IMG/VR virus record: IMGVR_UViG_3300031857_023573
Coordinates: 96,001-160,000 of that record
Length of the DNA stretch: 64,000 bases
Direction: 5' to 3' (one strand)
From: a virus
Lineage: Duplodnaviria > Caudoviricetes
The notes beneath the pieces are model-generated. The model ran no database searches. It worked only from the letters and a program-made list of their open reading frames with translations, and was not told the origin of the DNA. Shown piece by piece: positions 1,867 to 3,808 of the stretch (its first letter is position 1; each line of letters opens with the position of its first letter). The position numbers and the translations under genes are program-made.

Positions 1867-2197
1867 TGAGAACCTTTTTTAGCTGAAGGTCTCTTAGTTT
1901 TTGTTTTATGGCTGTATCGCTTACCCCATCTGAAATAACTTCGAGAACCTCATTACATCTATTTATTAGATTTTCAAAATTATTAAAATTCACAACTCCA
2001 GGATTTGCCGAATATTTCGAGCCTTGCCAGATAACGTCTACCTTATTAATTTTATCAGCAAGGATCCAAGTGGTAACATTATCAAACGAGAACTGGTGTC
2101 TAATTGATTCGAGTGTTTCTCTAGCCTGGTTGCGAGTCAGATCAGTAATATCAACATAGATTACGAATATAGGATTTTCTAAATTTAAACTACTCAT
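1847..2197 (-). CDS. Hypothetical protein with C-terminal LRDLQLKKVL motif
   Basis: ORF track 1847..2227; ATG 2197 preferred because it gives ATGA coupling to the infC stop. Confidence 0.7.
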   Translation of the reverse strand: MSSLNLENPIFVIYVDITDLTRNQARETLESIRHQFSFDNVTTWILADKINKVDVIWQGSKYSANPGVVNFNNFENLINRCNEVLEVISDGVSDTAIKQKLRDLQLKKVLNDDTSF

Positions 2198-2739
2198 TTC
2201 TTCTTGGGTTTTAAGACCATGTGCCATCTAGAACCCTCAAGTTTTGGCATCGTTTCTGGAACTCCAAGTGACTCTACAAGTGTTGCAAACTTCAACATAA
2301 CCAACTGACCTTTGTCTGCCATATGATGTTGACGACCTTTGAGTAGAAGTGACAATTTTACTTTATTTCCTTCTTCTAGAAACTCAGAAGCCTTTTTAGA
2401 TTTGACTTCTAAATCATGGTCTGCTATATTGACAGAAAGTGAAATTTCTTTAACTTCAGATTTTTTTTGATTTTTCTTATTCTCTTTTTCGCGTTTTTCA
2501 ACTTCATATAAAAATTTACCGTAATCTTCAATTTTAACAACTGGTGGATTGGCATTTTCCGATATTAGAATAAGGTCTTTTTCATTTGCCTCGGCAAGTT
2601 TTGAAGCTTCATATGAAGACATTATAGCTCCTTGGCCTATTTCTCCAGTCACACGAACTTGTGGAAATCTTACTTCACCATTGATTTTGTGTTTTCTCTC
2701 TTTTAATGGAGGTCTTTTTCGATTATTGTTATTGTTCAT
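2194..2739 (-). CDS. infC: Translation initiation factor IF-3
   Basis: IF3-N (KINGEVRFPQVRV...PPVVKIEDYGKFLYE) and IF3-C (VKEISLSVNIADHDLEVK...KVKLSLLLKGR...PKLEGSRWHMVLKPK). Confidence 0.93.
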   Translation of the reverse strand: MNNNNNRKRPPLKERKHKINGEVRFPQVRVTGEIGQGAIMSSYEASKLAEANEKDLILISENANPPVVKIEDYGKFLYEVEKREKENKKNQKKSEVKEISLSVNIADHDLEVKSKKASEFLEEGNKVKLSLLLKGRQHHMADKGQLVMLKFATLVESLGVPETMPKLEGSRWHMVLKPKKK

Positions 2740-2984
2740 AAGTTATTACTTCAAATGCAGAAAGTCCCTGAGCTATCTCTGGACTTAAAAATTAAGATAT
2801 TTCTTTTTATATTGACTTCGGCCATTTAAAAATGAGAATTTGGTTGATAGATAGTATCAACTGTGACCAAACTATTTAGATTTCTATTCATCTTTAAGAT
2901 ATAACGCCAATTATATTATCTAAAATTTAAATTGTTTAAAAATTTAAAAAAATATTAATGTATATATTGGGAAAAATAAAGAAG

Positions 2985-3240
2985 AAAAGAGGAACTTCTG
3001 TCAAGTACGGTCGAAATCCGAGAACCTAATTCTTGACTTTTAGTGGTCTTACCACTTGGGATTGCCTTTTAATGGTTTCATCAACCTTGGTTTAGCAGTG
3101 TTACCATTCTGCTTATTTTTCTTCCTTAACAGTAGTTTTTAAATTGTTTCGTTTAGTCTCACACTGTTATAGAGTCTAAATTTATCGGCTTTTTTATAAT
3201 TACCTATAAACGTTACCGAACCGCTTGTAGTTCACCTTTT
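2985..3240 (-). ncRNA. Candidate structured ncRNA downstream of smpB (closing stem plus two putative pseudoknots); class unresolved
   Basis: No ORF of 60 aa or more. 5' AAAAGGUGAACUACAAGCGG pairs with 3' CCGUACUUG..AGUUCCUCUUUU. Hairpin 3152-3180 has a loop complementary to 3127-3133. Hairpin 3094-3113 has a loop complementary to 3071-3076. G-U wobbles favour the minus strand. Confidence 0.45.
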
Positions 3241-3376
3241 ATTTTGTTAAATATGTTTACTATTTACCACGATGGTTCATGATTTTTCATCAAAGGCGTA
3301 AACTTATTAACTCATTACTTACCATCATATAATACAAGACTACTTCAAATAGTAAAAATTCATCTTGTAATTTTTG

Positions 3377-3808
3377 TTACAAATCATTTCTTCTTAGATC
3401 TCTATCAGTATCTCTTTTCTTAATATCTTGTCTTTTATCCCAGTCTTTTTTTCCACGACAAACTCCCATTTTTACTTTGAATCTACCATTAACAGTAAAG
3501 ACTTCAAGTGGAATTAAGGTGATACCTTTAGTCTCGGTCAATTTTGAGATTTTAGAAATTTCTTTTTTATTTAAAAGTAATTTTTTATCTCTAAGTTCAT
3601 CGTGATTTTGAAGTGATGATTCTTTATACTTTGCGATACTAAGGTTTTTAACCCAGAGTTCACCATCTTTAAAATAAATGAATGAATCTCCGAAATTAAG
3701 ACTGTTTGATCTTAAAGACTTCACTTCTGAACCAACAAGTACTAGTCCAGCTGTGAAGTCTTCGATCACTTGAAAATTAAAATATGCTTTTTTGTTTACG
3801 ATCTTCAT
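3377..3808 (-). CDS. smpB: SsrA-binding protein SmpB
   Basis: NKKAYFNF..EDFTAGLVLVGSEVKSLR...RDKKLLLNKKEI...TLIPLEV..GKKDWDKRQDIKKRD. ATG 3808 preferred over the track start 3829 (TATATTAG at 3817-3824). Confidence 0.95.
   Translation of the reverse strand: MKIVNKKAYFNFQVIEDFTAGLVLVGSEVKSLRSNSLNFGDSFIYFKDGELWVKNLSIAKYKESSLQNHDELRDKKLLLNKKEISKISKLTETKGITLIPLEVFTVNGRFKVKMGVCRGKKDWDKRQDIKKRDTDRDLRRNDL

What the first reader, a model, noticed from the sequence alone, without database searches (positions are those of the whole stretch)
2985..3370. Pseudoknot-rich candidate RNA where tmRNA would be expected, but with no visible tRNA-like domain
Seen: the ORF-free stretch just 3' of smpB folds on the minus strand. 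It has hairpins TACAAGA/TCTTGTA and AUGAUGGU/ACCAUCGU. A domain at 2985-3240 is closed by AAAAGG.GAACU.CAAG.CGG pairing with CCG..CUUG..AGUUC.UCUUUU. Inside are two hairpins whose loops match downstream sequence (3163-3169 with 3127-3133; 3103-3108 with 3071-3076), followed by a U-rich tail. G-U wobbles work only on the minus strand. A tmRNA D-loop-like GGAUUUCGAC lies near the 3' end, just ahead of the strand that pairs back to the 5' end, as in a permuted topology. I found no GGGG start, G3-U70 pair, canonical T arm, CCA or xxAA-ending tag ORF. Established: ssrA often neighbours smpB and contains serial pseudoknots. Inference: a degenerate or new SmpB-partner RNA (decoy or modified trans-translation), or an unrelated new ncRNA class.
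Basis: partly seen in the sequence, partly recalled or inferred. Interest (0 to 1): 0.75.

Follow-up and report, generated by a model that had tools for sequence, protein, structure and literature searches.

The report
New pseudoknotted megaphage RNA beside smpB
The ORF-free stretch after smpB encodes a real, strongly conserved ~400-nt RNA with at least four pseudoknots that matches no catalogued RNA family; it occurs once per genome in a clade of huge freshwater phages that carry SmpB but no tmRNA, and it is not itself a tmRNA.

Summary
Window 2970-3370 (minus strand) is a structured RNA gene. About 80 distinct homologues were found in lake, sludge and marine phage contigs, none in 185,579 bacterial or archaeal species genomes. 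In the 165-nt core, 99% of cells pair and 9 pairs show changes on both sides (0/500 shuffles).

Its long domain-closing helix and its second loop pairing are not. The "D-loop-like GGAUUUCGAC" is a pseudoknot strand that covaries with AAUCC at 3059-3063.

It is not a tmRNA. It has no acceptor stem, T arm or conserved tag frame, and no match from ARAGORN, Rfam or nhmmer against 66 Bacteroidota tmRNAs. It is also not RNase P RNA or any other Rfam 15 family.

Two facts tie it to SmpB. smpB lies upstream on the same strand in every locus with enough sequence, while the downstream gene varies. Five related genomes with this RNA lack tmRNA, whereas three Lak megaphages and, weakly, a 735-kb phage have SmpB plus tmRNA and lack this RNA.

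Best reading: a new trans-acting RNA class in the phage translation module, possibly a tmRNA replacement (about 0.3). The same stretch was noted before in an overlapping window.

The parts
2970..3370 (-). Whole RNA gene, about 400 nt, from the 5' hairpin to the closing helix and U-rich tail
   Evidence: Core and 5' half HMMs hit only here in the window: E 1e-40 and 6e-15. Collinear with relatives. Two contigs of one freshwater RNA library lie only on 3064-3193 and 3228-3357.
3333..3369 (-). P1: 5' hairpin (UACAAGAUGA / UAGUCUUGUA). Most relatives have a larger branched 5' domain closed by a covarying helix at this position.
   Evidence: Variants include UAUAAGUCA/UGACUUAUA and UCGUUAAGAC/GUCUUAACGA.
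3271..3326 (-). X hairpin: S1 (GAUGGU/ACCAUC), an invariant AGUA/GAA internal loop (sarcin-ricin/loop-E type by sequence), and S1b (AUGA/UCAU)
   Evidence: S1 98% paired with AU35/GC26; S1b 100% paired with CG42/GC10/UA7. Coordinates.
3233..3298 (-). PK1: X-hairpin loop strand 3292-3298 (CGCCUUU) pairs with 3233-3239 (AAAGGUG)
   Evidence: 93% paired, three positions with CG/UA exchange (38/16, 39/13, 51/7). Searches cover the window's own lineage.
3185..3219 (-). Extra hairpin (UCGGU/GCCGA) seen only in the window's lineage, with a GGUAAU loop
   Evidence: By eye (window and L038). Not tested statistically.
3127..3180 (-). PK2: hairpin 3152-3180 whose loop 3163-3169 (UAACAGU) pairs with 3127-3133 (ACUGUUA), directly 5' of H1
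   Evidence: L061 and L040 have UGAUAG/CUAUCA. The main group has GUGUUGG/CCAACAC at the same place, 82% paired.
2979..3126 (-). Conserved core domain closed by H1 (3117-3126 AGGAAGAAAA with 2979-2988 UUUUCUUCUU), followed by a U-rich tail
   Evidence: a 7-12 bp H1 in all 65 distinct sequences, in more than 30 sequence versions. L002 and L059 carry the core alone. Model R1 scores 100-183 bits, one copy per genome.
3094..3113 (-). H2 hairpin (AGCAG/CUGCU) with invariant loop AAUGGUAACA. GG-N-AAC (3100-3105) is proposed to pair with GUUCC (2991-2995) as PK3.
   Evidence: H2: CG58/UA12. PK3: all five pairs invariant, and the proposed bulge N varies U/A/C. GUUCC was fixed by the search pattern, so PK3 is untested by covariation.
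3071..3088 (-). H3: small variable hairpin (AAGGUU/AACCAUU)
   Evidence: column 58/75 CG39, GU15, GC3; column 54/102 GU30/AC36 (isosteric). Longer versions in L008 and L002 covary.
3042..3056 (-). H4 hairpin (AGUGGU/ACCACU)
   Evidence: AU64/GC9 and UG53/UA15.
3000..3063 (-). H5 (3032-3037 GUCAAG with 3000-3005 CUUGAC) enclosing H6 (3023-3026 GGUU with 3009-3012 GACC). PK4: AAUCC 3059-3063 pairs with the H6-loop GGAUU 3015-3019. Some relatives insert a further hairpin between H5 and H6.
   Evidence: H5 CG37/UA30/AU4 and AU65/UA4/GC4; PK4 UG35/UA29/GC7/AU1, 100% paired. One search found PK4 without a prior model, by mutual information.
3377..3808 (-). smpB, full-length canonical SmpB with C-terminal tail, directly upstream
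   Evidence: Pfam PF01668 at 174 bits. Aligns over residues 4-140 with solved SmpB chains, E 5e-38.
2194..2739 (-). infC (IF-3), about 250 nt downstream. Most relatives have a yqeY-like gene here instead.
   Evidence: Pfam IF3_N and IF3_C; synteny table.

Best explanation
Window 2970-3370 (minus strand) is the gene of a previously uncatalogued, large, pseudoknot-rich non-coding RNA. It is specific to one clade of huge phages from freshwater, wastewater and marine samples. Their promoters look Bacteroidota-like.

Shown: it has a variable 5' stem, two pseudoknots in the 5' half (PK1, PK2), and a 165-nt core that is about 85% conserved. The core is closed by helix H1 and contains hairpins H2-H6 plus a covariation-proven long-range pseudoknot (PK4). 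A second long-range pseudoknot (PK3) is invariant and so unproven. The RNA is single-copy. Two lineages keep the core alone. It is neither tmRNA nor RNase P RNA.

Inferred: it is a separate, trans-acting transcript. Most relatives have their own TAnnTTTG promoter, it ends in H1 plus a U tract, and the downstream gene varies. It probably works as a folded scaffold or catalytic RNA that binds a protein, tRNA or the ribosome within the phage's translation module (smpB, yqeY, a class II aaRS, tRNA arrays, infC).

Specific mechanism I favour, at about 0.3: it is the RNA that works with the phage SmpB in genomes that have no tmRNA of their own, so it replaces or modifies tmRNA-dependent ribosome rescue without a tRNA-like domain or tag.
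For: Family and structure: about 80 distinct homologues. Core alignment A2 has 99.0% of cells paired against 95.6% in shuffles, 9 pairs changed on both sides, 0/500 shuffles as high, and at most 40% paired when partners are slid. H1 forms in 65/65 sequences. The 5'-half helices covary. PK4 was found independently by mutual information.

Not a known family: no Rfam 15 hit below E 4. RF00010 and RF00023 miss it in 5 genomes. ARAGORN is negative.

Phage-specific: 0 pattern hits in 185,579 species genomes. Model R1 finds nothing convincing in 151 Bacteroidota genomes but scores 100-183 bits, once per genome, in three related phage genomes.

Own transcription unit: 51 of 54 distinct upstream regions have a TAnnTTTG motif, against 0.22 expected. 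The downstream gene varies: yqeY, infC and others. Contigs of one RNA library cover only the RNA, not smpB or infC (weak).

SmpB link: smpB lies upstream on the same strand in every locus with at least about 3.4 kb of upstream sequence, 0.4-4.4 kb from the RNA's 3' end depending on the intervening genes. Five genomes with the RNA have no tmRNA. Three Lak genomes have SmpB and a tmRNA above the cut-off, the 735-kb phage has only a weak match (21 bits, below the cut-off), and none of the four has this RNA.
Against: No experiment shows the transcript's ends, stability or partners. The only laid RNA evidence is two contigs at depth 3 from one library.

The window and L038 lack an exact promoter motif, so here the RNA may be co-transcribed with smpB.

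Against the SmpB-partner idea: the phage SmpB is fully canonical (174 bits to Pfam; tail with DKR and IKKR), which argues that it binds a normal tRNA-like domain, probably the host's tmRNA. SmpB has no known way to bind an RNA without such a domain. In the other megaphages, and in 80 Bacteroidota loci, smpB and ssrA are not adjacent. Adjacency here may therefore be inherited gene order in one clade. The complementary distribution rests on 5 against 4 genomes from only a few lineages, and one of the four tmRNA matches is weak. The window's own genome beyond these 64 kb could not be searched.
Confidence: 0.6

Rival explanations
1. It is a true but extremely remodelled tmRNA. It would descend from ssrA and still do trans-translation, with a tRNA-like part formed in an unrecognised way (for example a pseudoknotted acceptor ending at the GUUCC-A) or supplied by a second RNA.
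For: Size and serial pseudoknots resemble tmRNA. It sits next to smpB. No other tmRNA was found in 5 related genomes. GUUCC is followed by A in about 85% of sequences, giving CCA. Lak tmRNAs are already divergent enough to be missed by ARAGORN.
Against: The 5' and 3' ends do not pair with each other. There is no T arm and no G3-U70 helix. The CCA-like triplet is not universal, and the covarying H1 strand follows it. No conserved tag frame exists. nhmmer against 66 Bacteroidota tmRNAs and against the Lak tmRNAs does no better than shuffles. All Rfam tmRNA models miss it. The GGAUU motif is a pseudoknot strand.
Confidence: 0.08
2. It is a cis-acting leader or attenuator. The folded core with H1 plus the U tract would act as a terminator that controls read-through into the downstream translation genes (yqeY and the aaRS, or infC) in response to a protein, tRNA or ligand.
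For: A yqeY-like gene starts only 38-50 nt after the RNA in most loci. H1 is followed by a U run. The strongly conserved unpaired nucleotides look aptamer-like.
Against: The downstream gene is not constant: infC at about 250 nt in the window's lineage, unrelated small genes in L042, L088 and L095, and inserted genes in L030. The window has no yqeY or D/K/N aaRS within 64 kb. A/U-rich long-range H1 is a poor terminator. The spacer before yqeY carries near-consensus promoter-like words (by eye).
Confidence: 0.14
3. It is a ribozyme or the RNA subunit of an RNP that processes the phage's many tRNAs, acting as a functional analogue of RNase P RNA or a new activity.
For: tRNA arrays and an aaRS lie 1-3 kb downstream in relatives. 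The compact double-pseudoknot core has invariant unpaired nucleotides. Words such as AAAGUC and ACAGAA recall RNase P CR-I and CR-V.
Against: RF00010 finds nothing in 5 genomes. nhmmer against two Bacteroidota RNase P RNAs gives nothing. The proposed P4-like pairing of the 5' AAAGAGUC with the 3' GUUCC does not covary. The helix order differs from RNase P.
Confidence: 0.07
4. It is a large ornate phage RNA in the sense of GOLLD and ROOL: a self-assembling or scaffolding RNA whose role is not tied to SmpB. Synteny would be inherited gene order only.
For: It is phage-borne, several hundred nucleotides long, intricately folded, near tRNA genes, and better conserved than the neighbouring proteins (core about 85% identity against SmpB about 55%).
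Against: The Rfam models of GOLLD, ROOL and the others do not match. This reading names a category, not a mechanism.
Confidence: 0.1

Closest known systems
tmRNA (ssrA; Rfam RF00023, RF01849-RF01851, RF04321)
   Same: Similar length (about 400 nt), a string of pseudoknots, a single copy per genome, a location beside smpB, and presence in genomes that otherwise have SmpB without tmRNA.
   Different: No acceptor stem from the two ends, no T arm, no universal CCA, no resume codon or tag frame, and no sequence or covariance-model similarity. Two of its pseudoknots are long-range tertiary pairings inside a closed domain rather than local H-type knots.
GOLLD and ROOL large ornate RNAs of phages and prophages
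   Same: Large, highly structured, phage-encoded RNAs of unknown biochemical function, often near tRNA genes (from my own knowledge of the literature).
   Different: No model match. Smaller than GOLLD. Different hosts and phage type. Strict linkage to smpB.
Bacterial RNase P RNA, type A (RF00010)
   Same: A long-range helix with a variable bulged nucleotide next to an ACAGAA-like word, a multi-domain fold, and a tRNA-rich neighbourhood.
   Different: Different helix order. No CR-I to CR-V set. No P4 covariation with the 5' region. No model or HMM match.

Membership tests
tmRNA | tRNA-like domain: 5' and 3' ends pair into an acceptor stem with G3-U70 | tested here: not met
   The 3' end pairs with an internal strand (H1) and the 5' end forms its own stem. 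No 5'/3' covariation was seen. ARAGORN finds nothing even at an 80% threshold.
tmRNA | T arm with a GUUCRANYC-type loop, and a D-loop analogue that contacts it | tested here: not met
   No T arm is present. The GGAUU(U)CGAC word is half of pseudoknot PK4 (UG35, UA29, GC7, AU1).
tmRNA | 3'-terminal CCA, encoded or added | tested here: inconclusive
   GUUCC is followed by A in about 85% of 73 sequences but not in the window (GUUCCU). A covarying helix strand follows it. The mature 3' end is unknown.
tmRNA | Short tag reading frame with a resume codon and stop, conserved as a peptide | tested here: not met
   No frame is conserved in position, length or C-terminus across the family.
tmRNA | Match to covariance or sequence models of the family | tested here: not met
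   Rfam at E up to 10 gives nothing. RF00023 misses it in 5 genomes but finds Lak tmRNAs at 47-54 bits. nhmmer against 66 tmRNAs equals shuffles.
tmRNA | Binding to SmpB and alanylation | not testable with these tools
   Needs EMSA and aminoacylation assays.
RNase P RNA (bacterial type A) | P4 helix formed by CR-I and CR-V, with a model match | tested here: not met
   RF00010 gives no hit in 5 genomes, although controls match. The candidate P4 does not covary. nhmmer is negative.
Any Rfam 15 family (including GOLLD, ROOL, riboswitches, leaders) | Covariance-model match | tested here: not met
   The best hits on the region have E of 4 or more and score far below gathering thresholds.

The most novel reading that the evidence does not exclude
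A clade of megaphages has replaced tmRNA with a structurally unrelated, tRNA-domain-less RNA that works with a canonical SmpB. This would be a new kind of ribosome-rescue or ribosome-capture system: rescue without tagging, or diversion of stalled host ribosomes to the phage's benefit.
Probability: 0.2. Interest if true: 0.92.

Novelty: categorically new. Interest (0 to 1): 0.72.

Why it matters
This RNA is large, intricately folded and better conserved than its neighbouring proteins. It is present once per genome in environmentally widespread huge phages and absent from every catalogue searched, so it is a candidate new class of functional RNA. Its strict linkage to smpB, in genomes that lack tmRNA, makes one question directly testable: can SmpB work with an RNA other than tmRNA, and do huge phages rewire ribosome rescue? 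Even if the link to SmpB is only inherited gene order, the 165-nt core with two long-range pseudoknots is a good target for structure determination and for ribozyme or ligand screens. It also adds an RNA component to the known translation toolkit of huge phages.

Tried and rejected
1. RNase P reading. The 5' AAAGAGUC with a bulged U pairing the 3' ACAG..GUUCC looked like P4, but the 5' word changes freely while the 3' word stays fixed. RF00010 and nhmmer are also negative.

2. Circular permutation of the window relative to its relatives. The GUGUGAG resemblance was coincidental. The window is collinear, with one extra hairpin.

3. Homology of the X hairpin to helix P2 of Sphingobacteriia tmRNA (shared AUGGNGGUAAGUA). 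This is not significant: E 31, and shuffles score higher.

4. A tag frame. Open stretches exist but none is conserved.

5. A tRNA-like acceptor piece elsewhere. The short RF00023 hits in relatives are ordinary or intron-bearing tRNAs.

6. The search for related loci with SmpB in viral contigs found nothing. Relatives were reached through DNA patterns instead.

7. ARAGORN at a 70% threshold gives only implausible permuted candidates.

8. The generic longest-helix own-versus-cross test is too noisy in this A/U-rich RNA for the 5' half. It was replaced by column counts.

9. About 20 freshwater, wastewater and sludge RNA libraries hold 5% of the RNA's sampled words. Runs X20, X23 and X24 gave nothing usable on the RNA.

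10. Model R1 gave one marginal hit (E 0.027) among 151 Bacteroidota genomes, as expected by chance.

11. No complex prediction was run, because the tools fold proteins only.

Full report
**Setting**

The window has about 30% G+C. It encodes SmpB (3377-3808, minus), IF-3 (2194-2739, minus), AdoHcy hydrolase, thioredoxin, a sigma factor, an NAD ligase and very large ORFs. No whole genome is held for it.

Its SmpB is closest to those of two uncultured phages of 634 and 642 kb (55-57% identity). Next come the Lak megaphages and a 735-kb phage (42-44%). The window is therefore part of a huge phage.

The stretch 2740-3376 has no ORF. The minus strand folds better than dinucleotide shuffles (z -2.2) and the plus strand does not (z +0.1). 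ARAGORN finds only one tRNA-Met far away. Rfam 15 finds nothing in the region, even at E up to 10.

blastn found one 80% match, in the 634-kb phage LR745206. Two short DNA patterns taken from that match then recovered the family:
- 12 viral contigs;
- 75 metagenome contigs from lakes, sludge and sea;
- none in one genome each of 185,579 bacterial and archaeal species.

This gives about 80 distinct sequences.

**Structure**

A 73-sequence alignment of the 3' core (A2) was tested against my helix model with the count of structure pairs:
- 99.0% of 2,331 cells form standard pairs, against 95.6% after shuffling;
- 9 pairs show changes on both sides (78 cells);
- 0 of 500 shuffles reach any of these values;
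- sliding the partners by 1-3 columns drops pairing to 20-40%.

Support for the individual helices:
- H2: CG58/UA12.
- H4: AU64/GC9.
- H5: CG37/UA30/AU4 and AU65/UA4/GC4.
- PK4: UG35/UA29/GC7/AU1. A model-free mutual-information scan found this pair first.
- H1, the closing helix: it forms as a 7-12 bp duplex in all 65 distinct sequences, in more than 30 sequence versions.
- PK3 (GG-N-AAC in the H2 loop with GUUCC): every paired base is invariant and only the proposed bulge varies. GUUCC was part of the search pattern, so PK3 is unproven.

In the 5' half, column counts support S1 (AU35/GC26), S1b (CG42/GC10/UA7), PK1 (CG/UA exchanges at three positions), a hairpin, and PK2. The window's own lineage shows PK2 as UAACAGU/ACUGUUA, against UGAUAG/CUAUCA in L061 and L040.

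The X hairpin carries an invariant AGUA/GAA internal loop, which by sequence is of the sarcin-ricin or loop-E type.

Two lineages, L002 (phage LR756502) and L059, keep only the core behind a promoter. The core is therefore the essential unit.

Right: the two hairpins, the first loop-to-downstream pairing, the minus strand, the U-rich tail and the lack of tmRNA hallmarks.

Wrong:
- The long closing helix. Its strands belong to PK1, H5 and H1.
- The second loop pairing. Its supposed partner is the 3' strand of H3 and varies without compensation.
- The D-loop reading of GGAUUUCGAC, which is a PK4 strand.
- The permuted topology.

**Not a tmRNA, not RNase P**

- The two ends do not pair with each other, and there is no T arm.
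- The CCA-like triplet after GUU is absent from the window and from about 15% of sequences. A covarying helix strand follows it.
- No reading frame is conserved.
- I fetched real Bacteroidota tmRNAs through their ENNYALAA tag and delimited 66 of them with ARAGORN. HMMs of the new RNA match them no better than shuffled copies. The Lak tmRNAs give the same result.
- RF00010 finds nothing in five related phage genomes but scores 193-250 bits in two Bacteroidota genomes. nhmmer against those RNase P RNAs is negative.
- My own P4-like idea failed on covariation.

**Genomic behaviour**

Covariance model R1, built from A2, finds exactly one strong copy (100-183 bits) in each of three related genomes. 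It finds none in four complete Lak or 735-kb genomes, and nothing convincing in 151 Bacteroidota genomes.

Of 54 distinct upstream regions, 51 carry the Bacteroidota-type -7 word TAnnTTTG, mostly 60-127 nt before the X hairpin, against 0.22 expected. The window and L038 lack an exact copy.

Downstream, most loci have a YqeY-family gene 38-50 nt away, followed by a class II aaRS and tRNA arrays. The window's lineage has infC instead. Others have unrelated genes.

Upstream, every locus with enough sequence has smpB on the same strand, 0.4-4.4 kb from the RNA's 3' end, with 0 to 2 or more intervening genes.

One freshwater RNA library yields two 151-nt contigs that lie only on the RNA, at 3064-3193 and 3228-3357, and not on smpB or infC. 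This is a weak hint of expression.

**The SmpB question**

Five related genomes that carry the RNA have no tmRNA. Their RF00023 hits are tRNAs of 131 nt or less.

Three Lak genomes have SmpB and a full-length tmRNA at 47-54 bits, which ARAGORN misses. The 735-kb phage has a weak tmRNA match next to a group I intron. None of these four has the new RNA.

This either/or pattern, together with the synteny, is the main support for a functional tie.

Three points weigh against it:
- The phage SmpB is entirely canonical, so it should bind an ordinary tRNA-like domain, such as the host's.
- smpB and ssrA are not neighbours in 80 Bacteroidota loci or in Lak phages, so adjacency here has no ancestral precedent.
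- The comparison covers only a few independent lineages.

**Verdict**

This is a real, new, phage-specific structured RNA family. It is most likely a trans-acting RNA of the translation module. A role as SmpB partner or tmRNA substitute is the most interesting reading still open (about 0.2-0.3). A cis-acting leader, a ribozyme or an ornate scaffold RNA remain possible.

An overlapping window of this scan had already flagged the same stretch (note e1-5408319). Its "tag frame" is not supported here.

Noticed in passing
L228:260-832 (LR756501.1, about 718160-718731, minus strand): In the 735-kb phage a weak tmRNA match (RF00023, 21 bits, L228 489-832) directly abuts a strong group I intron (RF00028, 96 bits, L228 260-491). 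This may be an intron-interrupted tmRNA gene.
   Followed up: partly
L224:1501-1896(-), L226:1501-1910(+), L225: Lak megaphages A1, B1 and C1 carry full-length tmRNAs (47-54 bits) that ARAGORN does not report. Read by eye, the Lak-A1 tag region ends ...DDEIDFRMAA before the stop.
   Followed up: partly
L019:1501-1631 (IMGVR_UViG_3300032236_002285, 221075-221205): A tRNA-like gene of 131 nt with normal acceptor, D and T arms but an insertion of about 58 nt. Several neighbouring tRNA-Lys genes are also 84-88 nt long, which suggests introns or insertions in megaphage tRNAs.
   Followed up: no
window 2843-2861 (minus strand) and about 2757-2790: Between the RNA and infC lie a perfect 7-bp hairpin (GUUGAUA/UAUCAAC) and a second hairpin (AGUCC/GGGACU) just before the infC start. 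They could be an infC leader. Conservation was not checked.
   Followed up: no
L001:996-2663(-) and homologues in most related loci: A 555-aa ORF with no Pfam match sits on the opposite strand between smpB and the RNA in the main group. It is absent from the window's 64 kb.
   Followed up: partly
relatives, 60-127 nt upstream of the X hairpin (e.g. L009, L061, L060): The TAnnTTTG word, followed by TAT, is found in 51 of 54 distinct upstream regions. It matches the Bacteroidota -7 promoter element and suggests the host phylum of this phage clade.
   Followed up: partly
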